From assembly GCF_050920415.1 (NCBI RefSeq), contig NZ_CP169309.1: a DNA stretch of 64,000 nucleotides. One strand, given 5' to 3'. A program made the position numbers and the translations under genes. The notes under the pieces are model-generated. The model was not told the DNA's origin. It was given only the letters and a program-made list of their open reading frames with translations, and searched no databases. This document shows positions 35,359 to 58,830 of this stretch, in pieces. Numbering within the stretch: the stretch's first letter is position 1; every line of letters starts with the position of its first letter. This DNA is from Escherichia coli. Its GTDB lineage: Bacteria; Pseudomonadota; Gammaproteobacteria; Enterobacterales; Enterobacteriaceae.

Positions 35359-36681
35359 ATGCAAGCCTATTTTGACCAGCTCGATCGCGTTCGTTATGAA
35401 GGCTCAAAATCCTCTAACCCGTTAGCATTCCATCACTATAATCCCGACGAACTGGTGTTGGGCAAGCGTATGGAAGAGCACTTGCGTTTTGCCGCCTGCT
35501 ACTGGCACACCTTCTGCTGGAACGGGGCGGACATGTTTGGTGTGGGGGCGTTTAATCGTCCGTGGCAGCAGCCTGGTGAGGCACTGGCGTTGGCGAAGCG
35601 TAAAGCAGATGTCGCATTTGAGTTTTTCCACAAGTTACATGTGCCATTTTATTGCTTCCACGACGTGGATGTTTCCCCTGAGGGCGCGTCGTTAAAAGAG
35701 TACATCAATAATTTTGCGCAAATGGTTGATGTCCTGGCAGGCAAGCAAGAAGAGAGCGGCGTGAAGCTGCTGTGGGGAACCGCTAACTGCTTTACAAACC
35801 CTCGCTACGGTGCGGGTGCGGCGACGAACCCAGATCCAGAAGTCTTTAGTTGGGCGGCGACGCAAGTTGTTACAGCGATGGAAGCAACCCATAAATTGGG
35901 CGGTGAAAACTATGTTCTGTGGGGCGGTCGTGAAGGTTACGAAACGCTGTTAAATACCGACTTGCGTCAGGAGCGTGAACAACTGGGCCGCTTTATGCAG
36001 ATGGTGGTTGAGCATAAACATAAAATCGGTTTCCAGGGTACGTTGCTTATCGAACCGAAACCGCAAGAACCGACTAAACATCAATATGATTACGATGCCG
36101 CGACGGTGTATGGCTTCCTGAAACAGTTTGGTCTGGAAAAAGAGATTAAACTGAACATTGAAGCTAACCACGCGACGCTGGCAGGTCACTCTTTCCATCA
36201 TGAAATAGCCACCGCCATTGCGCTTGGCCTGTTCGGTTCTGTCGACGCCAACCGTGGCGATGCACAACTGGGCTGGGACACCGACCAGTTCCCGAACAGT
36301 GTGGAAGAGAATGCGCTGGTGATGTATGAAATTCTCAAAGCAGGCGGTTTCACCACCGGCGGTCTGAACTTCGATGCCAAAGTCCGTCGTCAAAGTACTG
36401 ATAAATATGATCTGTTTTACGGTCATATCGGCGCGATGGATACGATGGCGTTGGCGCTGAAAATTGCAGCACGCATGATTGAAGATGGCGAGCTGGATAA
36501 ACGCATCGCGCAGCGTTATTCCGGCTGGAATAGCGAATTAGGCCAGCAAATCCTGAAAGGCCAAATGTCACTGGCAGATTTAGCCAAATATGCTCAGGAA
36601 CATAATTTGTCTCCGGTGCATCAGAGTGGTCGCCAGGAGCAACTGGAAAATCTGGTAAACCATTATCTGTTCGACAAATAA
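35359..36681 (+). CDS. xylA: Xylose isomerase
   Basis: 440-aa product from [15 protein letters not shown]; synteny. Confidence 0.9.
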
Positions 36682-36752
36682 CGGCTAACTGTGCAGTCCG
36701 TTGGCCCGGTTATCGGTAGCGATACCGGGCATTTTTTTAAGGAACGATCGAT

Positions 36753-38207
36753 ATGTATATCGGGATAGATCTTGGCACCTCGGGCGTAAAAGTTATTTTG
36801 CTCAACGAGCAGGGTGAGGTGGTTGCTTCGCAAACGGAAAAGCTGACCGTTTCGCGCCCGCATCCACTCTGGTCGGAACAAGACCCGGAACAGTGGTGGC
36901 AGGCAACTGATCGCGCAATGAAAGCTCTGGGCGATCAGCATTCTCTGCAGGACGTTAAAGCATTGGGTATTGCCGGCCAGATGCACGGTGCAACCTTACT
37001 GGATGCCCAGCAACGGGTATTACGCCCTGCCATTTTGTGGAACGACGGGCGCTGTGCGCAAGAGTGCACTTTGCTGGAAGCGCGAGTTCCGCAATCACGG
37101 GTGATTACCGGTAACCTGATGATGCCCGGATTTACTGCGCCTAAATTGCTATGGGTTCAGCGGCATGAGCCGGAGATATTCCGTCAAATCGACAAAGTAT
37201 TATTACCGAAAGATTACTTGCGTCTGCGTATGACGGGGGAGTTTGCCAGCGATATGTCTGACGCAGCTGGCACCATGTGGCTGGATGTCGCAAAGCGTGA
37301 CTGGAGTGACGTCATGCTGCAGGCTTGCCACTTATCTCGTGACCAGATGCCCGCATTATACGAAGGCAGCGAAATTACTGGTGCTTTGCTACCTGAAGTT
37401 GCGAAAGCGTGGGGTATGGCGGCAGTGCCAGTTGTCGCAGGCGGTGGTGATAATGCAGCTGGTGCGGTTGGTGTAGGAATGGTTGATGCTAATCAGGCAA
37501 TGTTATCGCTGGGGACGTCGGGGGTCTATTTTGCTGTCAGCGAAGGGTTCTTAAGCAAGCCAGAAAGCGCCGTACACAGCTTTTGCCATGCGCTACCGCA
37601 GCGTTGGCATTTAATGTCTGTGATGCTGAGTGCAGCGTCGTGTCTGGATTGGGCCGCGAAATTAACGGGCCTGAACAATGTCCCAGCTTTAATCGCGGCT
37701 GCTCAACAGGCTGATGAAAGTGCCGAGCCAGTTTGGTTTCTGCCTTATCTTTCCGGTGAACGTACGCCACACAACAATCCCCAGGCGAAGGGGGTTTTCT
37801 TTGGTTTGACCCATCAACATGGTGCTAATGAACTGGCGCGAGCAGTGCTGGAAGGCGTGGGTTATGCGCTGGCAGATGGCATGGATGTCGTGCATGCCTG
37901 CGGCATTAAACCGCAAAGTGTTACGTTGATTGGTGGCGGGGCGCGTAGTGAGTACTGGCGTCAGATGCTGGCGGATATCAGCGGTCAGCAACTCGATTAC
38001 CGCACGGGGGGGGATGTGGGGCCAGCACTGGGCGCAGCAAGGCTGGCGCAGATTGCGGCGAATCCAGAGAAATCGCTCATTGAGTTGTTGCCACAACTGC
38101 CGTTAGAACAGTCGCATTTACCAGATGCGCAGCGTTATGCCACTTATCAGCCACGACGTGAAACGTTCCGTCGCCTCTATCAGCAACTTCTGCCATTAAT
38201 GGCGTAA
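36753..38207 (+). CDS. xylB: Xylulokinase
   Basis: 484-aa FGGY-family kinase; synteny. Confidence 0.9.
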   Translation: MYIGIDLGTSGVKVILLNEQGEVVASQTEKLTVSRPHPLWSEQDPEQWWQATDRAMKALGDQHSLQDVKALGIAGQMHGATLLDAQQRVLRPAILWNDGRCAQECTLLEARVPQSRVITGNLMMPGFTAPKLLWVQRHEPEIFRQIDKVLLPKDYLRLRMTGEFASDMSDAAGTMWLDVAKRDWSDVMLQACHLSRDQMPALYEGSEITGALLPEVAKAWGMAAVPVVAGGGDNAAGAVGVGMVDANQAMLSLGTSGVYFAVSEGFLSKPESAVHSFCHALPQRWHLMSVMLSAASCLDWAAKLTGLNNVPALIAAAQQADESAEPVWFLPYLSGERTPHNNPQAKGVFFGLTHQHGANELARAVLEGVGYALADGMDVVHACGIKPQSVTLIGGGARSEYWRQMLADISGQQLDYRTGGDVGPALGAARLAQIAANPEKSLIELLPQLPLEQSHLPDAQRYATYQPRRETFRRLYQQLLPLMA

Positions 38208-38374
38208 ACGTTATCCCCTGCCTGACCGGGTGGGGGATAATCCACATCTATATATATCAGTAATTAATTAATATTTAGTATGAATTTATTCTGAAATCAT
38301 TTGTTAATGGCATTTTTCAGTTTTGTCTTTCGTTGGTTACTCGTAATGTATCGCTGGTAGATATGGAGATCATT

Positions 38375-38716
38375 ATGAAAACCTCAAAGACTGTGGCAAA
38401 ACTATTATTTGTTGTCGGGGCGCTGGTTTATCTGCTTGGGCTATGGATCTCATGCCCATTGTTAAGTGGAAAAGGCTATTTTCTTGGCGTGTTAATGACG
38501 GCAACTTTTGGCAACTATGCATATCTTCGTGCTGAAAGACTCGGGCAACTGGATGATTTTTTTATCCGTGTCTGCCAGTTGGTAGCGTTAATCACAATCG
38601 GTCTCTTGTTTATCGGTGTTTTAAATGCGCCTATCAATGCTTATGAAATGGTGATTTATGCCATCGCCTTTTTTGTTTGCTTGTTTGGTCAAATGCGTTT
38701 GTTTCGCTCGGCATGA
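38375..38716 (+). CDS. yiaB: YiaA/YiaB-family inner membrane protein (113 aa)
   Basis: Hydrophobic 113-aa product from MKTSKT; position next to xylB as for K-12 yiaB as I recall. Confidence 0.65.
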   Translation: MKTSKTVAKLLFVVGALVYLLGLWISCPLLSGKGYFLGVLMTATFGNYAYLRAERLGQLDDFFIRVCQLVALITIGLLFIGVLNAPINAYEMVIYAIAFFVCLFGQMRLFRSA

Positions 38717-38761
38717 GCAACATAAAGCTCTTACACATTCAGGAATGAAAGGAATACTGTG

Positions 38762-39199
38762 ATGGACAACAAAATATCAACCTATTCTCCGGCATTTAGT
38801 ATTGTGTCATGGATAGCTCTTGTTGGTGGTATCGTTACCTATCTATTAGGGCTATGGAATGCAGAGATGCAGTTAAATGAAAAAGGATATTATTTTGCCG
38901 TGCTGGTGCTAGGACTGTTTTCTGCGGCATCTTATCAAAAGACCGTTCGTGACAAGTATGAAGGCATACCGACCACCTCCATTTATTATATGACCTGCCT
39001 GACTGTCTTTATTATCTCTGTTGCGTTATTGATGGTAGGTCTGTGGAATGCGACGTTATTACTCAGCGAAAAAGGTTTTTATGGGCTGGCTTTCTTCTTA
39101 AGCTTGTTTGGTGCAGTAGCGGTGCAGAAGAATATTCGTGATGCCGGAATAAACCCACCAAAAGAAACACAGGTTACCCAGGAAGAATACAGCGAATAA
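38762..39199 (+). CDS. yiaA: YiaA/YiaB-family inner membrane protein (145 aa, two-repeat)
   Basis: Internal duplication of the YiaAB motif (LLGLWNAE... / LMVGLWNAT...); synteny. Confidence 0.65.
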
Positions 39200-39240
39200 T
39201 TCACGTAAGCCCGGTCAGTCCAATGTAACCGGGCTTTTAC

Positions 39241-40236
39241 TTAACTCACTAGTCTGTTTCTGTCGATTCGTTGAAGCAGCACAGAAAGTAACAAACTCGC
39301 TGCCAACGTCGCGCAAAAGATCCAAATAATATCCAGTATTGGCCAGTTTTTAAGCTCAATCCCCTGGGTACGCAGCGCATGGATAATCAATGCGTGGAAC
39401 CCGTATATACCTAAAGAATGGCGTGATATCAGCCCAAGCCCGGGAACAGTATGTGTATCCAGCGTGTTTTTAACCAGAGTCAATAGTGCGATTGCGCAGA
39501 TAAAAACCATCGGCCCACAGTAAAGATACCAGGTATCGGCAAAATTTCCGCGCCACTGCAATTCATATAATGTCCCGCGAGAGATAATAAATACCCCCGC
39601 AACAAACAGTGTGGCGCTCACCCACGACAGTGCCTTATGCTGTGTGTCCATCATGCCAATGGCGCGCCCCAACATGCCATACAGGATGTAGTAAAAAGTA
39701 TCGCCATTGATATATAAGTTAATTGGCAGCCATTCAAAACTGTCGATTTTCTGCGGCACAGTATTTGGATTAGCGATGATGCCAATCACCACCATTAGCA
39801 CCAGCAACATTTTACCGCCGACGTTCTTCACCTGAATCAGCGGTGAAACCAGATAAATCACCGCAATCGCGAAGAAAAACCATAAGTGGTAAAAAACAGG
39901 CTTTTGCAGCAGGTTTTTTAGCGCCATCTCTACATTGATGGAGGTAAATAGCGCAATGTAGAGCAGCGCAACAGTGCTATAAAACAGCAGGCATAAGCCG
40001 ATGCGTAAGAAATGGCGCGGCTGGGCGCTGCGTTCGCCAAAAAAGAGATAGCCGGAAATCATGAAAAATAGCGGCACGCTGACACGAGAGGCAGAATTCA
40101 GAACATTGGCGATATCCCAGGTAGCGGGGCTAACACTATGAGCATTGGTCACATACCAGGTTGTGGTGTGAATCATTACCACCATTAAGCAAGCTATCCC
40201 TCGCAGGTTATCAATCCAGTAAATTTTGGGCTGCAT
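39241..40236 (-). CDS. wecH: O-acetyltransferase (acyltransferase 3 family)
   Basis: 331-aa polytopic membrane acyltransferase; synteny. Confidence 0.85.
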
Positions 40237-40410
40237 CTGTGTCTCTGTATCTGGTTAAAAAAAGTCTGACCGATAAATCATTCGGTTGGCACACTGGAAT
40301 AATCTGAGTTTTATCACTACAGCTTATAGAGGCTTGAGGAAATTCGTAAGATATCAGCCACTATACCGATATAAATAATAAGACTCACCTGCAAACCAGA
40401 CGGTAATTTA

Positions 40411-40710
40411 ATGATGATGAACTCTTTCTTTCCGGCAATGGCGCTTGTAGTGTTAGTGGGATGCTCGACACCGCCACCCGTGCAGAAAGCACAACGGGTA
40501 AAAGTTGATCCGCTGCGTTCGTTGAATATGGAAGCGTTATGCAAGGATCAGGCGGCAAAACGTTATAACACCGGCGAGCAAAAAATCGACGTCACCGCCT
40601 TCGAACAGTTCCAGGGAAGCTACGAAATGCGTGGTTATACCTTCCGGAAAGAGCAGTTTGTCTGTTCTTTTGACGCGGATGGCCATTTTTTGCATCTTTC
40701 CATGCGTTAA
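40411..40710 (+). CDS. ysaB: Small lipoprotein
   Basis: 99-aa ORF with lipobox-like LVGC signal; synteny upstream of glyQ. Confidence 0.7.
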   Translation: MMMNSFFPAMALVVLVGCSTPPPVQKAQRVKVDPLRSLNMEALCKDQAAKRYNTGEQKIDVTAFEQFQGSYEMRGYTFRKEQFVCSFDADGHFLHLSMR

Positions 40711-40804
40711 GCCCTGCTTTTTCCCGTTTCGTACTGTATATCTTCCATCCAGCGGGTATACTGATCCCTTCCTTTAAATCCACACGTATCCAGCACGAAA
40801 TAAT

Positions 40805-41716
40805 ATGCAAAAGTTTGATACCAGGACCTTCCAGGGCTTGATCCTGACCTTACAGGATTACTGGGCTCGCCAGGGCTGCACCATTGTTCAACCATTGGAC
40901 ATGGAAGTCGGCGCGGGAACCTCTCACCCAATGACCTGTCTGCGCGCGCTGGGGCCAGAACCGATGGCGGCTGCTTATGTTCAGCCTTCTCGTCGCCCGA
41001 CCGATGGTCGCTACGGCGAAAACCCCAACCGCTTACAGCACTACTATCAGTTCCAGGTGGTCATTAAGCCATCGCCGGACAATATTCAGGAGCTGTACCT
41101 CGGTTCCCTGAAAGAGCTGGGCATGGATCCGACTATCCACGATATCCGTTTCGTGGAAGATAACTGGGAAAACCCGACTTTGGGTGCCTGGGGGCTGGGC
41201 TGGGAAGTGTGGCTGAACGGCATGGAAGTGACGCAGTTCACTTACTTCCAGCAGGTTGGTGGTCTGGAGTGTAAACCGGTTACCGGCGAGATCACCTACG
41301 GTCTGGAACGTCTGGCCATGTACATTCAGGGCGTAGACAGCGTTTACGACCTGGTCTGGAGCGACGGTCCGCTGGGTAAAACCACCTACGGCGACGTGTT
41401 CCATCAGAACGAAGTGGAGCAGTCCACTTACAACTTCGAATACGCGGATGTGGACTTCCTGTTCACCTGCTTCGAGCAATACGAGAAAGAAGCGCAGCAG
41501 CTGCTGGCGCTGGAAAATCCGCTGCCGTTGCCAGCCTACGAGCGTATTCTGAAAGCCGCCCACAGCTTCAACCTGCTGGATGCGCGTAAAGCCATCTCCG
41601 TCACTGAGCGTCAGCGCTATATTCTGCGCATTCGCACCCTGACCAAAGCAGTGGCAGAAGCATACTACGCTTCCCGTGAAGCCCTCGGCTTCCCGATGTG
41701 CAACAAAGATAAGTAA
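40805..41716 (+). CDS. glyQ: Glycine--tRNA ligase alpha subunit
   Basis: 303 aa, highly conserved. Confidence 0.95.
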
Positions 41717-41725
41717 GAGGCGGCT

Positions 41726-43795
41726 ATGTCTGAGAAAACTTTTCTGGTGGAAATCGGCACTGAAGAGCTGCCACCAAAAGCACTGCGCAGCCTGGCTGAG
41801 TCCTTTGCTGCGAACTTTACTGCGGAGCTGGATAACGCTGGCCTCGCACACGGCACCGTTCAATGGTTTGCTGCTCCGCGTCGTCTGGCGCTGAAAGTAG
41901 CTAACCTGGCGGAAGCGCAACCGGATCGTGAAATCGAAAAACGCGGCCCGGCAATTGCTCAGGCGTTCGACGCTGAAGGCAAACCGAGCAAAGCGGCAGA
42001 AGGCTGGGCGCGTGGTTGCGGTATTACCGTTGACCAGGCTGAGCGTCTGACTACCGATAAAGGCGAATGGCTGCTGTATCGCGCCCACGTGAAGGGCGAA
42101 AGCACTGAAGCACTGTTGCCGAATATGGTTGCGACTTCGCTGGCGAAACTGCCGATCCCGAAACTGATGCGTTGGGGTGCAAGCGACGTGCACTTCGTGC
42201 GTCCGGTGCACACCGTGACCCTGCTGCTGGGCGACAAAGTTATTCCGGCTACCATTCTGGGCATTCAGTCCGATCGCGTGATTCGCGGCCACCGCTTTAT
42301 GGGCGAGCCGGAATTCACTATCGACAATGCTGATCAGTATCCGGAAATTCTGCGTGAGCGCGGGAAAGTCATCGCCGATTACGAAGAACGTAAGGCGAAG
42401 ATTAAAGCCGATGCCGAAGAAGCGGCGCGTAAGATTGGCGGTAACGCTGACTTAAGCGAAAGCCTGTTGGAAGAAGTCGCTTCGCTGGTGGAATGGCCGG
42501 TTGTGCTGACCGCAAAATTCGAAGAGAAATTCCTCGCGGTGCCGTCTGAAGCACTGGTTTACACCATGAAAGGTGACCAGAAATACTTCCCGGTGTATGC
42601 GAACGACGGCAAACTGCTGCCGAACTTTATCTTCGTTGCCAATATCGAATCGCAAGATCCGCAGCAAATTATCTCTGGTAACGAGAAAGTCGTTCGTCCA
42701 CGTCTGGCGGATGCCGAGTTCTTCTTCAACACCGACCGTAAAAAACGTCTGGAAGATAACCTGCCGCGCCTGCAAACCGTGTTGTTCCAGCAACAGCTGG
42801 GTACACTGCGCGACAAAACTGACCGCATCCAGGCGCTGGCTGGCTGGATTGCTGAACAGATTGGCGCTGACGTTAACCACGCAACCCGTGCGGGCCTGCT
42901 GTCCAAGTGCGACCTGATGACCAACATGGTCTTCGAGTTCACCGACACCCAGGGCGTTATGGGGATGCACTACGCGCGTCACGATGGTGAAGCGGAAGAT
43001 GTCGCAGTGGCGCTGAACGAGCAGTATCAGCCGCGTTTTGCTGGTGATGACCTGCCGTCTAACCCAGTGGCTTGTGCGCTGGCTATTGCTGACAAGATGG
43101 ATACCCTGGCGGGTATCTTCGGTATCGGCCAGCATCCGAAAGGCGACAAAGACCCGTTTGCGTTGCGTCGTGCCGCGCTGGGCGTGCTGCGCATTATCGT
43201 TGAGAAGAACCTCAACCTCGATCTGCAAACACTGACTGAAGAAGCGGCGCGTCTGTACGGTGATAAGCTGACTAACGCCAACGTGGTTGATGACGTTATC
43301 GACTTTATGCTCGGTCGCTTCCGCGCCTGGTATCAGGACGAAGGTTACACCGTTGACACCATCCAGGCGGTACTGGCGCGTCGTCCGACTCGTCCGGCTG
43401 ATTTCGATGCCCGAATGAAAGCGGTATCGCACTTCCGAACCCTGGATGCGGCGGCAGCACTGGCGGCGGCGAATAAGCGTGTATCTAACATTCTGGCGAA
43501 ATCTGACGAAGTGCTGAGCGACCGCGTGAATGCCTCTACTCTGAAAGAGCCGGAAGAAATTAAACTGGCGATGCAGGTTGTGGTGCTACGTGACAAGCTA
43601 GAGCCGTACTTTGCTGAAGGTCGTTACCAGGATGCGCTGGTCGAACTGGCTGAGCTGCGTGAACCGGTTGATGCCTTCTTCGATAAAGTGATGGTCATGG
43701 TTGATGACAAAGAATTGCGAATCAACCGTCTTACCATGCTGGAGAAACTGCGCGAATTATTCCTGCGAGTTGCGGATATTTCGCTGTTGCAGTAA
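41726..43795 (+). CDS. glyS: Glycine--tRNA ligase beta subunit
   Basis: 689 aa, highly conserved; begins 10 nt after glyQ. Confidence 0.95.
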
Positions 43796-43808
43796 TAACG
43801 TCGTTATT

Positions 43809-43837
43809 AAAAAGCCTGCCATCTGGCAGGCTTTTTT
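43809..43837 (+). terminator. Rho-independent terminator of glyQS (aaaagcctgcc-atct-ggcaggctttttt)
   Basis: Perfect GC-rich hairpin followed by T-run. Confidence 0.65.
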
Positions 43838-44115
43838 ATCGCTAAATAATAGAGCAACCTTTAATAATCTTCTGCTGAATAAAGATTGTCTCATATATTA
43901 ATTTTATGAGATTTTTTAGGATTATATCAAAGAGAAGAAAAGAACTTATTAAGCTAGAATAGCCACAGGTGCTTGAGACTGTTTGTCTCAGGTATTCACC
44001 GAAAGGCAGACAGAGAAAAGCCCCACCTGACTATAAATCAAAGTGAGGCCCCTCTATGCATAGACACCATAAGGTTAGCCTCTTACTCGTTGGAAATCAA
44101 CACAGGAGGCTGGGA

Positions 44116-44268
44116 ATGCCGCAGAAATATAGATTACTTTCTTTAATAGTGATTTGTTTCACGCTTTTATTTTTCACCTGGATGATAAGAGATTCACTGT
44201 GTGAATTGCATATTAAACAGGAGAATTATGAGCTGGCGGCGTTTTTAGCCTGCAAATTGAAAGAGTAA
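44116..44268 (+). CDS. hokA: Hok-family small toxic membrane peptide (type I toxin); the locus appears uninterrupted
   Basis: 50-aa peptide MPQKYRLLSLIVICFTLLFFTWMIRDSLCELHIKQENYELAAFLACKLKE with AGGAGG RBS; terminal hairpin at about 44270-44300. Confidence 0.8.
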   Translation: MPQKYRLLSLIVICFTLLFFTWMIRDSLCELHIKQENYELAAFLACKLKE

Positions 44269-44456
44269 GAGTCTTCGGCGGGAAGTTATTCCCGCCTTTC
44301 TTACGGCGTTGCGCATTCTCATTGCACCCAAATTTATTCTTCACAAAAATAATAATAGATTTTATTACGCGAACGATTATTTATTTCCTGAATAAACAAA
44401 TAAAAAAATCCCCGCCATTTGGCAGGGATCTTAGATTCTGTGCTTTTAAGCAGAGA

Positions 44457-44669
44457 TTACAGGCTGGTTACGTTACCAGCTGCCGGGCCTTTAGCGCCGC
44501 TTTCGATGGTGAAGGACACTTTCTGACCTTCGTCCAGAGATTTGTAACCATCGTTCTGGATAGCAGAGAAGTGTACGAACACGTCTTTAGAACCATCGTC
44601 AGGAGTGATGAAGCCGAAGCCTTTGTCAGCGTTGAACCATTTTACGATACCAGTCATTTTACCGGACAT
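44457..44669 (-). CDS. cspA: Major cold shock protein CspA
   Basis: 70 aa, [21 protein letters not shown]...; long 5' UTR upstream. Confidence 0.95.
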
Positions 44670-44950
44670 AGTGTATTACCTTTAATAATTAATTGTGCCT
44701 TTCGGCGATATGGCGTGCTTTACAGATTTTGAAGCGTTAAAGGAAATGCACACTACGAGGGGTATCAACGATAACTCTTGAAGGGACTTGCCTTACTACA
44801 CTGCTTTAATGGTCTGTACGTCAAACCGTTGAAGTGCATTAAGCCACGCATTGGTGGGTGATGCAACAATTATTTTTCATATTTATGATTAATCGGTTGG
44901 AAAACGGTCCTGTCATCAGGACCGTAAACAGCAATAAAGTGGATAAAAGT

Positions 44951-45241
44951 CTATTCCATCAACTGCTTACTTAACGCTGGGTTAGCTTGAATCAGACGCA
45001 TCAATTTTAGTTCGGCACTTGAAGGCTTAACGCGTCGGGATTCCCATTCCTTTACCATGGCGACGGTAACGCCCAAAACCCGAGCGAAATCATCGATTTT
45101 TAACCCCGTACCTTTACGTAACTGCTCAATCTCGGTACAGGACGTTGTTCTATGCGTCAGAGTAATCTTCTGCGTTTCATCTTTAAAAACAATCTGTTCC
45201 AGGCTGCTCAACAGCTCATGCATGGGATCTTTATATTCCAT
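44951..45241 (-). CDS. yiaG: XRE-family HTH transcriptional regulator
   Basis: 96-aa ORF with HTH (LKIDDFARVLGVTVAMVKEWE); synteny. Confidence 0.8.
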   Translation of the reverse strand: MEYKDPMHELLSSLEQIVFKDETQKITLTHRTTSCTEIEQLRKGTGLKIDDFARVLGVTVAMVKEWESRRVKPSSAELKLMRLIQANPALSKQLME

Positions 45242-45674
45242 TGAAAACTCCTCAAATCACACTGCGGGATCGTGAATTGCATCGAAGCTCATTAAGAATA
45301 GTCGGGAAAAGCAGACACAGCGGGAGTAAGGCAGGGCATGCTCTGCCTGTGATTCGATTCAGCCTTATACTTAGCGTGACTTATAGCGACCTAACGATCT
45401 GATAAATGCCGATATATCTTTTACCACTCCGGGATTGTAAAGATTTCGAAAATATGGCGTTCTGTAAAGACGTAAATCTCTGGCTAGAAAAAAGGCAACT
45501 GCAATGTCATTTTTTAACAATGAAACAACAAATTAACCTTGTTTCGTTTTCTCCATTATTTTACCAGGAAGATTACGTAGAAAGGGTATCCTGCAAGCCT
45601 GTCCTGGACTATCCTTGTCACGTCAGACACGCGTGTGTCGTTGTGCGCTTTTTTTGGGTGAAAGGAGTAAGAAA

Positions 45675-46385
45675 ATGGCGACAGGAAAGTCCTGCTCTCG
45701 CTGGTTTGCGCCTCTTGCGGCGTTATTAATGGTAGTTAGCCTGAGTGGGTGTTTTGATAAAGAAGGCGATCAGCGTAAAGCGTTTATCGACTTCCTGCAG
45801 AATACAGTGATGCGTAGCGGTGAACGTCTACCAACCCTGACTGCCGATCAGAAAAAACAGTTTGGTCCTTTTGTCTCTGATTACGCGATTCTGTATGGTT
45901 ATTCACAGCAGGTGAATCAGGCGATGGATTCCGGTCTGCGCCCGGTTGTAGACAGCGTTAACGCAATTCGCGTACCGCAGGATTACGTTACGCAAAGCGG
46001 CCCACTGCGTGAAATGAACGGTTCTCTGGGTGTGCTGGCGCAACAGCTGCAAAATGCGAAGTTGCAGGCCGATGCTGCGCACTCTGCGCTAAAACAGAGC
46101 GATGACCTGAAACCGGTCTTTGATCAGGCATTCACCAAAGTGGTAACGACGCCAGCTGATGCTTTGCAACCGTTGATTCCGGCGGCACAAACTTTCACGC
46201 AACAACTGGTGATGGTTGGAGACTACATTGCTCAGCAAGGTACTCAGGTGAGTTTTGTCGCAAATGGCATCCAGTTCCCGACTTCGCAGCAGGCAAGTGA
46301 ATATAACAAACTGATTGCGCCATTACCGGCACAGCATCAGGCGTTTAATCAGGCCTGGACTACAGCAGTCACTGCAACCCAATAA
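45675..46385 (+). CDS. yiaF: DUF3053-family lipoprotein
   Basis: 236-aa product from MATGKS with lipobox LSGC; synteny. Confidence 0.8.
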   Translation: MATGKSCSRWFAPLAALLMVVSLSGCFDKEGDQRKAFIDFLQNTVMRSGERLPTLTADQKKQFGPFVSDYAILYGYSQQVNQAMDSGLRPVVDSVNAIRVPQDYVTQSGPLREMNGSLGVLAQQLQNAKLQADAAHSALKQSDDLKPVFDQAFTKVVTTPADALQPLIPAAQTFTQQLVMVGDYIAQQGTQVSFVANGIQFPTSQQASEYNKLIAPLPAQHQAFNQAWTTAVTATQ

Positions 46386-46433
46386 AGAGTAAAAGCCCGA
46401 GCGATTATCGGGCTTTACTTCCCGCAGTCGCGG

Positions 46434-47408
46434 TTAGTCCGCGACGTGCGGATTCACACAGTTCTTCTCAACCTTTCCTTGTAACGCATCAATCAAGTTA
46501 TCCACGGCACAGGCAGCCATGTCATAACGCGTCTCATGAGTGGCTGAACCAATATGCGGTACCGCGACGACATTTGCCATTGAGAGCAACGGCGAATCTA
46601 CAGACAGTGGCTCTTGTTCGAAGACATCCAGCCCGGCGGCGTGAATTTCCCCTTTCTGCAATGCAGCAATCAGTGCATTTTCATCTACCACCGGGCCACG
46701 TCCGGCATTAATGAAAATGGCGGAGGATTTCATTTTGGCGAAATGTTCTGCGCCAAACAGATGATGCGTTTCATCAGTTAACGGCAGGATCAGGCAAACG
46801 AAATCTGACTCTTGTAACAGTGTATCCAAATCGCAGTAGCGGGCGTTGAAGCGTTCTTCTGCTTCTTTATGGTGGCGGCGCGCGTTATAGAGGATGGGCA
46901 TATTGAAGCCAAAGTGCGCACGTTGTGCCAGCGCCATGCCGATCCGTCCCATCCCGACAATGCCCAGTGTTTTATGGTGAACGTCAGTGCCGTACCAGTC
47001 CGGGCCTATGCTCGCGGTCCATTCGCCTGCTTTTACCCGTTCTGCTACCTCCACAACCCGACGAGCGGTAGACAACACCAGCGCCATCAGCGTATCGGCG
47101 ACGGTTTCTGTTAATACGGTTGGCGTGTGCATCAGCAGAATTTTTCGGGCGGTAAGCGCATCGACATCAAAATTGTCATAGCCTACGGAGATCGTTGAAG
47201 TGGCCCGCAGTTTTGGCATTTTTTCCAGTAATGCGGCGTCAACGTTTTCATTTGAACCCAGCAAGCCTTCGGCGTCGGCAAAAATTGCTGCATTTTGTTC
47301 GACGGTTTGTGGGCTGAGGTTTGCCACCTGATGAACGGTGAAATGCTCTTGCAGGCGTTGCAGTAAATCATCAGGTAAGGCTTTGTAGAGGATAACGGAC
47401 GGCTTCAT
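46434..47408 (-). CDS. ghrB: Glyoxylate/hydroxypyruvate reductase B (2-ketoaldonate reductase)
   Basis: 324-aa D-isomer 2-hydroxyacid dehydrogenase with NAD-binding GIVGMGRIG motif. Confidence 0.9.
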
Positions 47409-47511
47409 TCTTCTCTCCATTCACTGATAAGGCGATCACCTTAGCCTGAAATATGATGAAGGAAAACTGAAGAATGCCAGGTGATTTTTGCATCACCTGG
47501 CATGAAAGGGA

Positions 47512-48171
47512 TTACAGCGGGCTTAAGGTAATTTCTACACGGCGGTTTTGCGCCTTACCTTCTGCGGTGCTGTTGCTGGCGATTGGGTTAGCCGGGCCAA
47601 GGCCCTGAGTACGGATGCGGCTGGCGTCCACGCCCTGGGTGATCAACGCGCTGGCAACAGAATCCGCACGCTGCTGGGAGAGACGCATGTTCAGGTCGTG
47701 ACCACCCGTGCTGTCGGTATAACCAATCACGTTAACCGCCGTTTTCGGATACTCTTTCAGCACCATTGCCACGCCGGTTAGGGTGTTAGCGCCTGCCGGT
47801 TTCAGGGTCGCGCTGCTGCTGTCGAAGGTTACATTGTTCGGCATATTGAGGATAATGTTATCCCCGCTGCGGGTTACGCTAACACCAGTGCCGCGCATTT
47901 TGTCACGTAGCTTCGCTTCCTGCACATCCATGTAATAACCAACGCCGCCGCCCAGAGCTGCACCCGCTGCTGCGCCAATCAGCGCGCCTTTACCGCGATC
48001 TTTCTTCGAAGAAGAGAGCGCACCAATACCCGCGCCAACGAGAGAGCCCAGACCTGCACCGATAGCAGATTTACCTGCTTCGCGTTCACCTGTGTAAGGG
48101 TTAGTGGTGCAGCCAGATACCGCCAGAGCGCCACTCACTACGGCGGCAATAAGATAAACACGTTTCTTCAT
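47512..48171 (-). CDS. yiaD: OmpA-family peptidoglycan-binding lipoprotein
   Basis: 219-aa ORF with lipobox (VSGC), Gly-rich linker and OmpA C-terminal domain. Confidence 0.85.
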   Translation of the reverse strand: MKKRVYLIAAVVSGALAVSGCTTNPYTGEREAGKSAIGAGLGSLVGAGIGALSSSKKDRGKGALIGAAAGAALGGGVGYYMDVQEAKLRDKMRGTGVSVTRSGDNIILNMPNNVTFDSSSATLKPAGANTLTGVAMVLKEYPKTAVNVIGYTDSTGGHDLNMRLSQQRADSVASALITQGVDASRIRTQGLGPANPIASNSTAEGKAQNRRVEITLSPL

Positions 48172-48323
48172 TGTTAATCCTTAATAACCTTTTTATTCTT
48201 TGCCACGGGTTCCGTGGCGGGAGATTATGCCGCGTGAACATGAAGATTATTCCTGGGAATACTCGGAAATTTGTAAGTAATATTTAACTGCTCAATACAT
48301 CTAATCTTTCAGGAGCCTTCGGT

Positions 48324-50657
48324 TTGGCCAACTCATCCTCACGTTATTCTGTTCTTACTGCCGCTCACTGGGGGCCCATGCTGGTTGAAACCGACGGCGA
48401 AACCGTGTTTAGCTCGCGTGGCGCGTTAGTCACAGAAATGAAAAACTCCTTGCAGAGTGCGGTTCGCGACCAGGTTCACAGCAAAACACGGGTACGATTT
48501 CCAATGGTGCGCAAGGGCTTTCTCGCGTCACCGGAAAACCCGCAAGGCATTCGTGGGCAGGATGAATTTGTTCGCGTGAGTTGGGATGAGGCGCTGGATC
48601 TCATCCATCATCAACATAAACGCATTCGTGAGGCTTATGGTCCGGCATCGATTTTTGCTGGTTCCTACGGCTGGCGTTCAAACGGCGTGCTGCATAAGGC
48701 CTCGACATTATTACAACGCTATATGGCGCTGGCAGGCGGTTATACCGGGCATCTGGGGGATTATTCGACCGGTGCAGCACAGGCGATCATGCCGTATGTC
48801 GTGGGGGGCAGCGAAGTTTATCAACAGCAAACCAGTTGGCCGTTGGTATTGGAACATAGCGATGTCGTGGTGCTATGGAGTGCTAACCCACTCAATACGC
48901 TGAAAATTGCGTGGAATGCATCCGATGAGCAGGGGCTTTCTTACTTTTCCGCACTGCGTGACAGCGGGAAAAAGCTGATCTGCATTGATCCAATGCGATC
49001 GGAAACCGTCGATTTCTTTGGCGATAAAATGGAGTGGGTGGCACCGCACATGGGCACCGATGTTGCGCTGATGCTGGGGATCGCCCATACGCTGGTGGAA
49101 AATGGCTGGCACGACGAAGCGTTTCTGGCGCGTTGCACCACAGGTTATGACGTCTTCGCCTCTTATTTGCTGGGCGAGAGTGACGGAATAGCGAAAAATG
49201 CCGAATGGGCGGCAGAGATTTGTGGGATTAACGCAGAGAAAATCCGCGAACTGGCGGCTATTTTTCATCAAAATACCACCATGCTGATGGCTGGCTGGGG
49301 AATGCAGCGCCAGCAGTTTGGTGAGCAAAAACACTGGATGATCGTCACCCTGGCAGCAATGTTAGGGCAAATCGGCACGCCTGGCGGGGGCTTTGGTCTT
49401 TCTTACCATTTTGCCAATGGTGGTAACCCTACGCGCCGCGCTGCGGTGCTTTCATCTATGCATGGCAGCTTGCCAGGTGGCACCGATGCGGTAGATAAAA
49501 TCCCTGTAGCCCGTATTGTTGAAGCTCTGGAAAACCCTGGCGGTGCATACCAACACAATGGCATGAACCGTCACTTCCCGGATATTCGTTTTATCTGGTG
49601 GGCGGGCGGCGCCAACTTTACTCATCATCAGGATACCAATCGTCTGATTCGTGCCTGGCAAAAACCGGAGCTGGTGGTGATCTCCGAATGCTTCTGGACG
49701 GCAGCGGCGAAACACGCCGATATCGTCCTCCCTGCAACCACCTCGTTTGAGCGTAATGACCTCACCATGACCGGCGATTACAGTAATCAGCATCTGGTGC
49801 CGATGAAGCAAGTGGTGCCTCCACGTTATGAAGCGCGTAATGATTTTGATGTCTTTGCCGAGTTGAGTGAACGTTGGGAGAAGGGCGGCTGTGCGCGGTT
49901 TACGGAAGGAAAAAGTGAGCTGCAATGGCTGGAAACGTTTTATAACGTTGCACGGCAGCGCGGGGCAAGCCAGCAGGTTGAATTGCCGCCATTTGCTGAG
50001 TTCTGGGAAGCCAACCAGTTAATTGAGATGCCGGAAAACCCGGACAGCGAGCGGTTTATTCGCTTCGCCGATTTTCGCCGCGATCCGCAGGCGCATCCAT
50101 TAAAAACCGCCAGCGGCAAGATTGAAATCTTCTCGCAGCGTATTGCCGATTACGCTTATCCGGATTGCCCTGGGCATCCAATGTGGCTGGAGCCGGACGA
50201 ATGGCAGGGCAATGCCGAACCGGAACAGTTGCAGGTACTTTCTGCTCATCCGGCACATCGTCTGCACAGCCAGCTGAATTACAGTTCTCTGCGCGAATTG
50301 TACGCGGTGGCAAATCGTGAGCCTGTCACCATTCATCCTGACGATGCCCAGGCGCGCGGCATACAAGATGGCGATATTGTTCGGTTGTGGAACGCACGCG
50401 GGCAAATTCTTGCCGGAGCGGTCATTAGTGAGGGAATTAAACCTGGCGTGATTTGCATTCATGAAGGGGCATGGCCGGATCTGGATTTAACCGCTGACGG
50501 TATTTGTAAAAACGGCGCGGTGAACGTTCTGACCAAAGATCTCCCCAGCTCGCGGCTGGGGAATGGCTGTGCGGGTAATACGGCGCTGGCATGGCTGGAA
50601 AAATACAACGGTCCGGAACTGACACTTACAGCGTTTGAACCACCGGCCAGCTCATAA
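48324..50657 (+). CDS. bisC: Biotin sulfoxide reductase (molybdopterin oxidoreductase)
   Basis: 777-aa DMSO-reductase-family enzyme; synteny. Confidence 0.9.
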
Positions 50658-51066
50658 TCCAGGTGGGTAGTTGGGTTTCATCCTGCCATGCGCAGTCGAC
50701 AATGTGAAAACCCTGCGCATGGTAAAAATCTATCGCCGGTTGATTTTTTTGATAAACCTCCAGCATCAGATGGGGATGGCGCTGCTGCACATACTGCATT
50801 AGCGCCTTACCAATACCGCGTCTGACGGCCTTCGGTGCGACAAACATTGCAGCCAGAAATCGGCCTTCCATAATGCTGACAAAACCGAGAAGCTTACCGT
50901 CTTCTTCCCAGACCCAGTTTTGCGCGTTGGCAAGATAGGCATCCCGCACCAGCGGAATGCAATCACGCCAGTAATTCGCTTTTATAAAGGGATGCCCCCA
51001 GGTTGTACTTTCCAGCCACAATTCGAGGATCGCGGGGAGTTCTGAACGTTGCGCTTCCCGAATCAT
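50626..51066 (-). CDS. yiaC: GNAT-family N-acetyltransferase
   Basis: 146-aa GNAT fold; overlaps tag stop by 4 nt. Confidence 0.8.
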
Positions 51067-51626
51067 GGTTTATTTCCCGGATAGCAACAGCAGCCAACCA
51101 CATGATCATTCACCAGCCCACATGCCTGCATAAAGGAGTAACAGATTGTGGTACCAACAAACTTAAAACCACGCTTTTTCAGGGCTTTAGATAGAGCGTC
51201 GGAGGCGGGCGTAGATGTAGGGATTTCGCTCAACGTTGTGGCTTGTGTCACCTGTGGTTGATGATTGACAAACGACCAAACAAAGTCGGCAAACGGTTCG
51301 CCGTTCTGTTCCATTTGCAGGTACGCCCGCGCATTACCAATAATTGCCTGAATTTTCCCGCGATGGCGGATAATCCCGGCGTCCTGTACCAGTCTTTCGA
51401 CGTCCTCTTCCTGCATTGCTGCGACTTTCATCGGATCGAACTGATGAAAGCAGGCGCGATAGTTTTCGCGTTTTTTGAGGACGGTGATCCACGATAACCC
51501 TGCTTGTTGCCCTTCAAGGCAGATCATTTCGAACAGTTTTTTACTGTCAGTTTCAGGCACGCCCCACTCATTATCATGGTAGGCAATATAAAGCGGGTCC
51601 TGACTCACCCAGCCGCAACGTTCCAT
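51063..51626 (-). CDS. tag: DNA-3-methyladenine glycosylase I
   Basis: 187-aa product from MERCGWVSQDPLYIAYHDNEWG; tool ORF has a long upstream in-frame extension. Confidence 0.9.
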   Translation of the reverse strand: MERCGWVSQDPLYIAYHDNEWGVPETDSKKLFEMICLEGQQAGLSWITVLKKRENYRACFHQFDPMKVAAMQEEDVERLVQDAGIIRHRGKIQAIIGNARAYLQMEQNGEPFADFVWSFVNHQPQVTQATTLSEIPTSTPASDALSKALKKRGFKFVGTTICYSFMQACGLVNDHVVGCCCYPGNKP

Positions 51627-51777
51627 ACTTTCCCTCGCTATGTACCCGATCGTAAAAATTTCAGCCGCTTTTCTTGACGCATCGGTGAAAAAGTCAATAT
51701 TTAATACAGGGCTACTATGCCCGATATCCTTCATACAATGACAATAATATTGCCGAATTCGGCTCTTCCCTGGAGTC

Positions 51778-52482
51778 GTGTTAATGATCATAAAAAAAAG
51801 CGGTGGTCGCTGGCAGTTAAGCCTGCTGGCGAGCGTGGTAATCAGTGCCTTTTTTCTCAACACAGCTTACGCCTGGCAACAAGAATATATCGTTGATACG
51901 CAACCCGGACATTCCACAGAGCGCTACACCTGGGATAGCGATCATCAACCTGATTACAACGATATTCTGTCGCAACGTATTCAAAGTAGCCAAAGGGCGC
52001 AGGGACTGGAAGTCAATCTGGCGGAAGAAACCCCTGTGGATGTGACCAGCAGTATGAGTATGGGCTGGAATTTTCCTTTATATGAACAGGTTACAACCGG
52101 CCCGGTCGCGGCATTACATTACGATGGTACAACCACCTCGATGTATAACGAGTTTGGCGACAGTACTACTACACTGACTGATCCGTTATGGCATGCCAGC
52201 GTGAGTACCTTAGGCTGGCGTGTTGACTCCCGGCTTGGCGATCTCCGACCCTGGGCGCAAATCAGCTATAACCAGCAATTTGGCGAGAATATCTGGAAGG
52301 CGCAATCAGGCTTAAGCCGGATGACGGCGACAAACCAGAACGGCAACTGGCTGGATGTCACGGTAGGTGCTGATATGTTGCTCAATCAAAATATTGCCGC
52401 CTACGCTGCGTTATCTCAGGCAGAAAATACCACGAACAATAATGACTATCTGTATACGATGGGGGTTAGTGCCAGATTTTAA
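51778..52482 (+). CDS. yhjY: Autotransporter beta-domain-like outer membrane protein
   Basis: About 232-234-aa ORF with signal peptide and C-terminal beta-barrel ending in F; synteny. Confidence 0.75.
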   Translation: MLMIIKKSGGRWQLSLLASVVISAFFLNTAYAWQQEYIVDTQPGHSTERYTWDSDHQPDYNDILSQRIQSSQRAQGLEVNLAEETPVDVTSSMSMGWNFPLYEQVTTGPVAALHYDGTTTSMYNEFGDSTTTLTDPLWHASVSTLGWRVDSRLGDLRPWAQISYNQQFGENIWKAQSGLSRMTATNQNGNWLDVTVGADMLLNQNIAAYAALSQAENTTNNNDYLYTMGVSARF

Positions 52483-56025: not shown

Positions 56026-56102
<77 letters not shown>

Positions 56103-56109
56103 AATTCGA

Positions 56110-56139
56110 AAAGCCTGCTCAGCGAGCAGGCTTTTTTGC
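56110..56139 (+). terminator. Rho-independent terminator after proK (aaaagcctgctc-agc-gagcaggctttttt)
   Basis: Perfect hairpin plus T-run. Confidence 0.65.
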
Positions 56140-56152
56140 ATTTGAAGCCCAT

Positions 56153-56270
56153 GAGGATGAGAACCTCCGGGGGCGGGGAGGTTCGACTCGAGCGAAGCGA
56201 GAGAACGTTGCGCCAGCAACGGCCCGCAGGGCGAGCCACGAAGTGGCGAGTAATCCTCTATCACCGACCA
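56153..56270 (+). repeat. tRNA-Pro 3'-end-containing repeat unit 1 (118 nt), ending in aatcctctatcaccgacca
   Basis: Contains a T-arm-like ggaggttcgactc, an insertion of about 60 nt, and then an exact copy of the last 19 nt of proK; followed by hairpin aaaaaccagcctacgggctggtttttt. Confidence 0.5.
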
Positions 56271-56320
56271 ATTTAGAAAAACCAGCCTACGGGCTGGTTT
56301 TTTGCTTTCTGCGGCCTGAA

Positions 56321-56424
56321 GAGGATGAGAACTTCCGGGGGCAGGGAGGTTCGACTCCAGCAAAGCGAGAGAACGTTGTGGCAGCAACGGCCCGCAGTGG
56401 CGAGTAATCCTCTGGCACCGACCA
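56321..56424 (+). repeat. tRNA-Pro 3'-end-containing repeat unit 2 (104 nt), ending in aatcctctggcaccgacca
   Basis: About 90% identical to unit 1 with a 14-nt internal deletion; ends in a 2-mismatch copy of the proK 3' end. Confidence 0.5.
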
Positions 56425-56433
56425 AATCTGAAC

Positions 56434-56515
56434 GTAGGCCTGATAAGACGCGTCAGCGCCGCATCAGGCAACGGCACCGCACTTATTGTCGGATGCGGCG
56501 TGAACGCCTTATCTG
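56434..56515. repeat. BIME (two REP units) downstream of the proK repeats
   Basis: gtaggcctgataagacgcgtcagcgccgcatcaggca ... cggatgcggcgtgaacgccttatc palindromes. Confidence 0.5.
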
Positions 56516-57055
56516 ACCGACACACCACATATTTCCCTGCCAAATTTGCGCCCCACATCTCACTATCCATTAACGGATTTGTGACAGAATCCATTGTCTT
56601 TTTTTATATTTGCTTAAATCTTTTTTTGCGTTACTTATGGCTGGCGCTGGTATTTTCCGCTGTGCGTTTTAGCGTTCATGGTATTAATCGCTCAGATATC
56701 CATCTTTTCCTCAGATTTTTTTCATTAAATGCATAAAACTTAATCACCAAATGTTGCTAAATATTAAGCTGATTGTTCTGGTTATGTTGGCGTAGCACAA
56801 ATTTCTCTGCTGCAAATAGCTGTTTGAAGTTTTTTTAATCTTTGTTTGTGGATTCTCACCGTTGGTGTAAATCCCGGTTGGCTGTATTGACGTTTTCACA
56901 TTCTGTTGACAGATTGTAGGTCACGAGGGGCATTTTATGGAGGATCCGCACTGTTACACTGATGTTAATTAGTACGGCATCCCCACCTCATAACGTTGAC
57001 CCGACCGGGTAAAAAACAAAAAAGGTCAGGCAGCGACAACCCACTGCAAAGGGTT

Positions 57056-58732: not shown

Positions 58733-58830
<98 letters not shown>

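What the first reader, a model, noticed from the sequence alone, without database searches (positions are those of the whole stretch)
43838..44456. hokA toxin locus with no IS150 insertion beside it
Between the glyS terminator and cspA there is only a 0.62 kb AT-rich region containing a complete 50-aa Hok-family ORF (RBS AGGAGG, ATG at 44116) followed by a terminal hairpin. In K-12, as I recall, an IS150 copy (insJ/insK) lies between glyS and cspA next to hokA and is thought to inactivate the locus. No such element is present here, so this hok/mok/sok-type type I toxin-antitoxin locus may be functional. That would make the strain a natural isolate rather than a K-12 derivative.
Basis: partly seen in the sequence, partly recalled or inferred. 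Interest (0 to 1): 0.5.

Follow-up and report, generated by a model that had tools for sequence, protein, structure and literature searches.

The report
Intact hokA toxin-antitoxin locus, no IS150
This is the ordinary, uninterrupted form of the E. coli hokA/mokA/sokA small-toxin locus between glyS and cspA. About half of sequenced E. coli carry it this way, and it has been known since 1999 that only K-12 and its relatives have an IS150 element there.

Summary
The 661-bp glyS-cspA spacer (37% GC) holds a complete 50-aa HokA ORF: AGGAGG at 44104-09, ATG at 44116, stop at 44266-68. It also holds the other parts of a hok/mok/sok type I toxin-antitoxin locus:
- an Rfam-recognised hok mRNA leader (43967-44118, 112.8 bits);
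- an in-frame mok ORF with a GAGG ribosome-binding site;
- a Sok-type antisense promoter and hairpin;
- a predicted 5'/3' fold-back (tac/fbi) that switches to tac/ucb pairing when the 3' end is removed.

K-12 MG1655 does carry IS150 here. It sits inside the mok/sok region, 32 bp upstream of the hokA start codon, and 39 bp (window 44045-44083) are missing. That segment includes the mok SD and ATG and the Sok -10 and start site.

The uninterrupted state is common and already described. It occurs in 2830 of 5426 complete E. coli genomes. The K-12-type junction occurs in 1575 genomes, many of them wild isolates. A second IS150-type insertion occurs in 842. Papers citing Pedersen & Gerdes (1999) report that an intact hokA (E. 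coli C) gave no post-segregational killing, so "intact" does not mean "active". The window is 100% identical to food isolate MFDS1022581 and is not K-12. Already known; low interest.

The parts
43955..43960 (+). Putative -10 hexamer (TAGAAT) of the weak hokA promoter. There is no good -35.
   Evidence: It lies 7 nt upstream of the first position of the Rfam leader model and aligns with the R1-type hok promoter region. TAGAAT is the same in 6 of the 7 aligned alleles (C31 has TGGAAT). The consensus scan did not call it, so this is an inference.
43967..44118 (+). hokA mRNA 5' leader: tac, ucb, mok SD, Sok target, hok SD, up to the hok AUG.
   Evidence: Full-length match to Rfam RF01794 'sok', 112.8 bits (gathering score 59), E=1.5e-26. 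The model is in the hok-sense orientation and ends at the hok AUG.
43967..43978 (+). tac element (AGGUGCUUGAGA). The first base is a rare A; nearly all other E. coli have G.
   Evidence: It pairs with fbi in the full-length fold and with ucb in the truncated fold. The A variant costs about 4 kcal/mol in both pairings. The exact 51-mer is found in only 4 of 5426 genomes.
44018..44024 (+). ucb (AAGCCCC). It pairs with the mok SD region in the full-length fold and with tac in the truncated fold.
   Evidence: Minimum-free-energy structures. Duplex energies.
44045..44048 (+). mok Shine-Dalgarno (GAGG), 7 nt upstream of the mok ATG.
   Evidence: Read from the sequence. It aligns with the GAGG of R1 mok. 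It is paired in the full-length fold.
44056..44268 (+). mokA leader ORF, 70 aa, in frame with hokA and sharing its stop codon.
   Evidence: The ATG is the same in all 7 aligned alleles. In K-12, mokA is annotated as a pseudogene truncated by IS150.
44010..44066 (-). SokA antisense RNA (approximate ends): a single-stranded 5' tail, then a long hairpin ending in UUUUCUCU.
   Evidence: Fold of -27.6 kcal/mol, z=-3.6. The 3' portion matches the K-12 sokA pseudogene annotation (3722077-2111, equal to window 44010-44044). The start site is inferred from the promoter position.
44072..44100 (-). Putative Sok promoter: -35 TTGATT (44100-44095), 17-nt spacer, -10 TAACCT (44077-44072).
   Evidence: Minus-strand sequence. 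The region is collinear with the corresponding R1-type hok/sok segment; GTAAGAGGCTA(A/T)CCT is conserved. Locating the R1 Sok promoter in that segment rests on memory, not on a tool result. No variation among 7 alleles. It is below the threshold of the consensus scan.
44104..44109 (+). hokA Shine-Dalgarno (AGGAGG). It is AGGGGG in many other alleles.
44116..44268 (+). hokA toxin ORF, 50 aa: MPQKYRLLSLIVICFTLLFFTWMIRDSLCELHIKQENYELAAFLACKLKE (Cys14, Cys29, Cys46).
   Evidence: NCBIfam HokA equivalog 129.5 bits, cutoff 89. Pfam HOK_GEF 2.4e-21. Annotated as hokA, WP_001135731.1, in the identical genome. It differs from K-12 HokA at one residue, S36N.
44277..44296 (+). GC-rich 3' hairpin followed by TTTCTT. 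It corresponds to the hairpin that ends the processed (truncated) hok mRNA in R1, and may also act as a terminator.
   Evidence: Terminator-like hit. It is formed in all folds. It aligns with R1 GGCGGGCGCAGGCCCGCC. The role of this hairpin in R1 is described in PMC9841398.
44317..44329 (+). fbi fold-back element (UCUCAUUGCACCC), complementary to tac.
   Evidence: Long-range pairing in the minimum-free-energy and centroid structures, z=-7.2 and -7.6. Duplex energy -14.9 kcal/mol. Identical in 6 of 7 alleles.
44245..44316 (-). ysaE-like 23-aa ORF, antisense to the hokA 3' end (MRNAVRKAGITSRRRLLLFQFAG).
   Evidence: It has 2 substitutions compared with K-12 YsaE (b4793), which is annotated at the equivalent place.
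44041..44084 (.). The segment that IS150-type elements hit in other strains; it is intact here. AAG at 44041-44043 is the target duplication of the second allele. In K-12, 44045-44083 is replaced by IS150.

Best explanation
This is the ancestral, uninterrupted allele of the chromosomal hokA/mokA/sokA type I toxin-antitoxin locus, in its fixed position between glyS and cspA.

By homology with R1 hok/sok it should work as follows.
1. A weak promoter (TAGAAT, 43955-60) makes a stable hokA mRNA starting at about 43967.
2. In the full-length RNA the 5' tac element pairs with the 3' fbi element (44317-29). The mok ribosome-binding site (GAGG, 44045-48) is held by ucb, so nothing is translated.
3. 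Slow 3' trimming back to the hairpin at 44277-96 frees tac to pair with ucb (44018-24). This exposes the mok site.
4. Translation of mok (from 44056) is coupled to translation of hokA (from 44116). HokA is a 50-aa inner-membrane toxin.
5. The short antisense SokA RNA (about 44066 to 44010 on the minus strand) normally pairs with this region and triggers RNase III decay.

Shown here: the identity of the toxin, the leader RNA family, the presence and conservation of every cis element, and the predicted structural switch. Inferred: promoter activity, transcript ends, processing and killing. Whether this chromosomal locus ever kills is unproven. A comparable intact allele was reported inactive in plasmid-stabilisation tests.
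For: - Toxin: NCBIfam HokA equivalog 129.5 bits, cutoff 89; Pfam HOK_GEF 2.4e-21.
- Leader: Rfam RF01794 full-length, 112.8 bits against a gathering score of 59.
- mok: an in-frame 70-aa ORF with GAGG 7 nt upstream of the ATG. The ATG is the same in all 7 alleles.
- Fold-back: tac/fbi pairing appears in the minimum-free-energy and centroid structures of the 369-nt and 474-nt RNAs, z=-7.2 and -7.6.
- Switch: pairing changes to tac/ucb when the RNA ends at the 3' hairpin.
- Sok: hairpin fold with z=-3.6. The putative Sok promoter segment is collinear with the corresponding R1-type hok/sok segment and does not vary among alleles.
- Synteny: hokA is annotated at this position in all complete genomes listed, and 5425 of 5426 genomes have a match.
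- K-12: IS150 plus a 39-bp loss at exactly the mok SD/Sok promoter segment, which is intact here.
- Literature: K-12 hokA is inactivated by an insertion element (PMC12214031). Intact hokA loci without IS are reported in natural isolates (PMC7232551). HokA is toxic on over-expression and has both cysteines encoded in the DNA (bioRxiv 10.1101/2025.08.07.668861).
Against: - The intact hokA locus of E. coli C did not mediate post-segregational killing and was not rifampicin-activated (Pedersen & Gerdes 1999, as summarised).
- Neither the hok nor the Sok promoter reaches the threshold of the simple sigma-70 scan.
- No stable terminator hairpin follows fbi. The next one is the cspA terminator at 44405-32, which has a poor U-tract on this strand. 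The hairpin at 44277-96 plus TTTCTT could terminate transcription before fbi.
- This allele has a rare A at the first tac base, which weakens both alternative pairings by about 4 kcal/mol.
- The sequence diversity within E. coli is too low to give compensatory-change support for the helices.
Confidence: 0.9

Rival explanations
1. The locus is structurally complete but physiologically silent. It is a conserved relic whose Hok is never released: the promoter is too weak, 3' processing does not occur, or SokA is too stable. On this view the absence of IS150 has no phenotypic consequence.
For: The intact E. coli C hokA locus gave no post-segregational killing and no rifampicin activation, and the authors proposed that chromosomal hok loci are inactive. 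The promoter hexamers are weak. No clear terminator follows fbi. About 45% of genomes tolerate IS disruption.
Against: Every cis element is retained, and variation across divergent lineages in the leader and Sok promoter is very low. The predicted tac/fbi to tac/ucb switch is intact. HokA protein is toxic. Repeated IS insertion at the same spot could equally reflect selection against an active locus.
Confidence: 0.5
2. This particular allele is crippled by its rare G-to-A change at the first nucleotide of the hok mRNA (43967). The change either shifts the transcription start or destabilises the tac stem needed for translation.
For: The exact 51-mer with A occurs in 4 of 5426 genomes. All 6 other aligned alleles, the K-12 sequence and the Rfam consensus have G. 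A terminal G-C pair is lost in both tac/fbi (-14.9 against -18.9 kcal/mol) and tac/ucb (-7.1 against -10.7). In R1, tac-stem mutations at G4, C5 and T6 abolish toxicity (PMC9841398).
Against: Predicted topologies are unchanged and both states are weakened about equally. The R1 suppressor positions quoted in the passages read were 4-6; position 1 was not among those mentioned. A is a good initiating nucleotide.
Confidence: 0.1
3. The hairpin at 44277-96 is the real terminator. On this view the hokA mRNA lacks fbi and is controlled only by SokA, with no fold-back lock.
For: It scores as an intrinsic-terminator-like site: 8-bp stem, 6 GC pairs, TTTCTT tail. No hairpin follows fbi until the cspA terminator.
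Against: R1 has the same hairpin, with UUUUCAGG, at the same place and reads through it. fbi is exactly complementary to tac and identical in 6 of 7 alleles, while the sequence further downstream varies. The tail has only 5 T in 8.
Confidence: 0.15

Closest known systems
hokA/mokA/sokA of E. coli K-12 MG1655 (b4455, b4647, b4614)
   Same: Same chromosomal position (glyS-cspA). The flanks are 96-98% identical. HokA differs at one residue (S36N). The 3' hairpin, fbi and ysaE are the same.
   Different: K-12 has IS150, antiparallel to hokA, in place of window 44045-44083. This removes the mok SD and ATG and the Sok -10 and start site, and it separates hokA from its promoter. The window is uninterrupted.
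Intact hokA loci of natural isolates (E. coli C in Pedersen & Gerdes 1999; AIEC NRG857c hok-6)
   Same: Uninterrupted hokA without an IS element, as here. This is the state in 2830 of 5426 complete genomes.
   Different: Allelic differences only. The window shares its leader haplotype (GAGGCCCCTCTATGCATAGA) with O157:H7 and has a rare A at mRNA position +1. I could not retrieve the E. coli C sequence for a direct comparison.
hok/mok/sok of plasmid R1 (parB)
   Same: Same order of elements and the same conserved blocks: tac, the GGCAGA...AGCCCC ucb region, the GAGG mok SD, the GTAAGAGGCTA(T/A)CCT block of the Sok promoter region, the Hok ORF and the 3' GC hairpin. The same structural switch is predicted.
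   Different: This locus is chromosomal and is not on a mobile replicon. The mok ORF is in frame with hok. The alignment shows no counterpart of the sequence that follows fbi in the R1-type locus (recalled, not tested, to be a terminal stem-loop). Killing is demonstrated for R1 and is not demonstrated for hokA.
hokB/sokB of E. coli K-12
   Same: A chromosomal hok locus without an IS element, with an in-frame mok (my recollection of the annotation; for the gene set).
   Different: HokB needs A-to-I editing to create Cys29. HokA has Cys29 and Cys46 encoded in the DNA.

Membership tests
Hok/Gef toxin family (Pfam PF01848); HokA equivalog (NCBIfam NF007290) | A protein of about 50 aa that matches the family profile above the curated cutoff. 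| tested here: met
   NF007290 129.5 bits against cutoff 89, residues 1-50 on profile 1-50. PF01848 E=2.4e-21.
Hok/Gef toxin family | The conserved cysteines (14, 29, 46) needed for toxicity. | tested here: met
   C14, C29 and C46 are present in the translated ORF. Their role is described.
hok/mok/sok type I TA locus | An hok mRNA leader with the conserved sequence and structure (Rfam RF01794). | tested here: met
   112.8 bits against gathering score 59, model positions 1-157 of 157.
hok/mok/sok type I TA locus | An overlapping mok reading frame with its own SD upstream of hok. | tested here: met
   70-aa ORF at 44056-44268, with GAGG 7 nt upstream. The ATG is the same in all 7 alleles.
hok/mok/sok type I TA locus | Long-range 5'-3' pairing (tac/fbi) in the full-length mRNA. 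| tested here: met
   In silico only. It is present in the minimum-free-energy and centroid structures, z=-7.2 and -7.6; duplex -14.9 kcal/mol.
hok/mok/sok type I TA locus | Alternative tac/ucb pairing after 3' truncation, freeing the mok SD. | tested here: met
   In silico. tac pairs with 44018-24 in the minimum-free-energy structure of the 334-nt RNA. The centroid structure is less clear.
hok/mok/sok type I TA locus | A cis-antisense Sok RNA with its own promoter and terminator, overlapping the mok start region. | tested here: inconclusive
   TTGATT-17-TAACCT plus a hairpin with a U-rich tail are present. The segment is collinear with the R1-type locus and does not vary among alleles. The promoter is below the consensus-scan threshold and there are no expression data.
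hok/mok/sok type I TA locus | Killing when Sok decays (post-segregational killing, rifampicin activation). | not testable with these tools
   The literature reports a negative result for the intact E. coli C hokA locus.
Chromosomal hokA locus of E. coli | Position between glyS and cspA. | tested here: met
K-12-type disrupted hokA allele | IS150 between sokA and hokA, with loss of 44045-44083. | tested here: not met
   The window is collinear with uninterrupted genomes and contains the 39 bp that K-12 lacks.

The most novel reading that the evidence does not exclude
The uninterrupted hokA allele may be active in vivo and costly. In that case the IS150-family insertions would mark selection to silence it, or a structure-specific insertion hot spot at the mok SD/Sok hairpin. 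These insertions have landed within a few bases of one another just upstream of the mok ribosome-binding site. There are two alleles covering about 45% of complete genomes. IS150 also hit the same relative spot in hokC during laboratory evolution.
Probability: 0.2. Interest if true: 0.35.

Novelty: already known. Interest (0 to 1): 0.1.

Why it matters
It matters little for discovery. It confirms that the window comes from a non-K-12 E. coli carrying the wild-type hokA arrangement. That arrangement is the majority state and has been described since 1999. The practical point is a caution: K-12 is the atypical reference at this locus, so "missing IS150" should not be flagged as unusual. The only mildly useful by-product is the population picture: 52% intact, 29% K-12-type IS150 with a 39-bp loss, and 16% a second IS150-type insertion at an AAG 2 bp upstream of the mok SD. 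That picture could feed a study of IS targeting or silencing of type I toxin loci.

Tried and rejected
- The simple sigma-70 scan did not call the hok or Sok promoters. Their placement rests on collinearity with the R1-type locus and on the start of the Rfam model.
- I looked for compensatory base changes in tac/fbi and the leader helices across 7 alleles. Diversity is too low. The one fbi change (strain C31, G to A) is not compensated, so there is no covariation support.
- I tried to read Pedersen & Gerdes 1999 directly by PubMed id. It is not held, so its content is cited through later papers.
- Literature searches for hokA with IS150, and for hokA/sokA/mokA, returned mostly irrelevant papers. 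PMC7881107 has no mention of hok.
- Chance ORF in an AT-rich spacer: rejected on the profile scores.
- I considered deriving the K-12 allele from the second IS150 allele by recombination. This is unlikely, because the two elements have opposite orientations.
- The sub-threshold Rfam hits around the glyS terminator (STnc370 and leader families) are generic terminator-hairpin matches and were ignored.

Full report
**1. What is in the sequence**

glyS (+ strand, 689 aa) ends at 43795 and is followed by a terminator hairpin. cspA lies on the minus strand at 44457-44669. The 661-bp spacer has 37% GC, against 51% for the whole window.

It contains AGGAGG at 44104-09, an ATG at 44116 and a TAA at 44266-68, giving a 50-aa product. 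That product matches the NCBIfam HokA equivalog at 129.5 bits (cutoff 89) and Pfam HOK_GEF at 2.4e-21. A GC-rich hairpin followed by TTTCTT sits at 44277-96.

**2. Other parts of the locus**

- **Leader.** Rfam's 'sok' family (RF01794), which is modelled in the hok-sense orientation, matches 43967-44118 over its full length at 112.8 bits (gathering score 59). It is the only such hit in the 64-kb window.
- **mok.** A 70-aa ORF starts at 44056. It is in frame with hokA and preceded by GAGG at a 7-nt spacing.
- **Sok.** On the minus strand, TTGATT-17 nt-TAACCT (44100-44072) precedes a region that folds into a long hairpin with a U-rich tail, -27.6 kcal/mol, z=-3.6. Its 3' half coincides with the sokA remnant annotated in K-12.
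- **Comparison with R1.** An alignment with an R1-type plasmid hok/sok locus shows the same conserved blocks in the same order: the 5' GCTTGAG...CTCA, GGCAGA...AGCCCC, GAGGC, GTAAGAGGCTA(A/T)CCT, the ORF and the 3' GC hairpin.

**3. Predicted RNA behaviour**

The RNA from 43967-44335 folds with its 5' end (GGUGC/UGAGA) paired to UCUCA-UU-GCACC at 44317-29. This is the tac/fbi fold-back, at -135.2 kcal/mol and z=-7.2. The mok GAGG is paired to the CCCC of ucb in that structure. The same pairing holds if the RNA runs on to the cspA terminator.

When the RNA is cut back to the 3' hairpin (43967-44300), the minimum-free-energy structure pairs tac with AAGCCCC (44018-24) instead. This is the switch described for R1 hok in PMC9841398. 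These are predictions only. Seven E. coli alleles show too little variation for a covariation test.

**4. Comparison with K-12**

In MG1655, IS150 occupies 3720633-3722075, between hokA and glyS. mokA and sokA are annotated there as pseudogenes. Pairwise BLAST and direct reading give these details:
- The glyS-side flank of K-12 ends at window 44044.
- The hokA-side flank resumes at 44084.
- The 39 bp in between are absent. They carry the mok SD and ATG and the Sok -10 and start site.
- There is no target duplication.
- IS150 is antiparallel to hokA.

The element is inside the regulatory region rather than beside the locus.

**5. How unusual is the uninterrupted state?**

It is not unusual.
- 5425 of 5426 complete E. 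coli genomes have a match to the spacer, and 2830 have it uninterrupted.
- The exact K-12-type junction is in 1575 genomes. These include isolates from dogs, cattle, chickens, sediment, lakes and seawater.
- A second allele is in 842 genomes. An IS150/ISKpn8-like element lies parallel to hokA with an AAG duplication at 44041-43. It occurs on both leader haplotypes.

Absence of IS150 does rule out K-12, but it says no more than that. The window itself is 100% identical over 16 kb to the food isolate MFDS1022581. Only one other genome reaches 99% identity.

**6. What the literature says**

- K-12 hokA, hokC and hokE are regarded as inactivated by insertion elements (PMC12214031; PMC7232551; both cite Pedersen & Gerdes 1999).
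- Intact hokA loci without IS elements have been noted in natural isolates.
- The intact hokA locus of E. coli C neither stabilised plasmids nor responded to rifampicin. This led to the proposal that chromosomal hok loci are inactive. HokA protein is nevertheless toxic when over-expressed, and it has both critical cysteines encoded in the DNA (bioRxiv 10.1101/2025.08.07.668861).

The finding therefore restates known biology. The step from "intact" to "functional" is not supported by what has been published.

**7. Peculiarities of this allele**

- The first base of the leader is A. Nearly all other genomes have G. The exact 51-mer is found in 4 of 5426 genomes. This removes a terminal G-C pair from both tac/fbi and tac/ucb, about 4 kcal/mol each, without changing the predicted topologies.
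- The mok-start hairpin haplotype (GAGGCCCCTCTATGCATAGA) is shared with O157:H7 and others.
- HokA differs from the K-12 protein by S36N.

**8. Verdict**

The feature is a standard, already described hokA/mokA/sokA locus in its ancestral, uninterrupted form. Interest is low.

One side issue may be worth a later look. IS150-type elements have landed within a few bases of the mok ribosome-binding site in hokA. IS150 also inserted 2 nt upstream of the mokC GAGG in REL606 evolution lines (PMC5419217).

Noticed in passing
window 44045-44083 (compare L001 1133/1134 and 2576-2578): K-12 lacks these 39 bp in addition to carrying IS150. The insertion has no target-site duplication and is antiparallel to hokA. 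This suggests an IS-associated deletion rather than a simple insertion. The exact junction is shared by 1575 of 5426 complete genomes, many of them wild isolates.
   Followed up: yes
window 44041-44043; L002 1540-1560 and 2990-3005; L012 275-290 and 1715-1735: There is a second, separate insertion allele. An IS150 (W46) or ISKpn8-like (MS6193) element lies parallel to hokA, with a 3-bp AAG duplication 2 bp upstream of the mok SD. It is present in 842 genomes and on both leader haplotypes. It may be one ancient insertion or repeated hits at a hot spot.
   Followed up: partly
L011 565-595 (REL606 hokC leader; record 16,972 and 16,989): IS150 insertions reported in REL606 laboratory evolution (PMC5419217) fall 2 nt and about 19 nt upstream of the mokC GAGG. 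This is the same relative place as the natural hokA insertions and is consistent with a hot spot in hok leaders.
   Followed up: partly
window 43967: A rare A at the first nucleotide of the hokA mRNA/tac element. The other aligned alleles, K-12 and the Rfam consensus have G. The exact 51-mer around it occurs in 4 of 5426 genomes.
   Followed up: partly
window 44245-44316 (-): A 23-aa ORF equivalent to K-12 ysaE (2 substitutions). It lies antisense to the last 24 nt of hokA and to the 3' hairpin. PGAP annotates it as a hypothetical protein in most genomes.
   Followed up: partly
L009 600-1075 (strain 405): Some strains carry an extra segment of about 400 bp, with a gene annotated as yidD-like, inserted between the hokA 3' region and the cspA terminator.
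   Followed up: no
window 36000-52000: This 16-kb stretch is 100% identical to strain MFDS1022581 (South Korea, animal-source food) and 99.3% identical to one Tibetan pig isolate. All other complete genomes are at or below 98.4%, so the window comes from a sparsely sampled lineage.
   Followed up: partly
window 56026-56518, 8294-8372 and 58754-58796: Rfam gathering-level hits elsewhere in the window: a tRNA followed by two RtT repeats, two naRNA4 (REP-derived) elements and ES036. These look like ordinary E. coli features.
   Followed up: no
window 44403-44432: The loop of the cspA terminator hairpin reads CCATTTGG here and CCAAATGG in the five other aligned alleles that retain this terminator and in K-12. 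This is an inverted loop sequence within an otherwise conserved stem.
   Followed up: no
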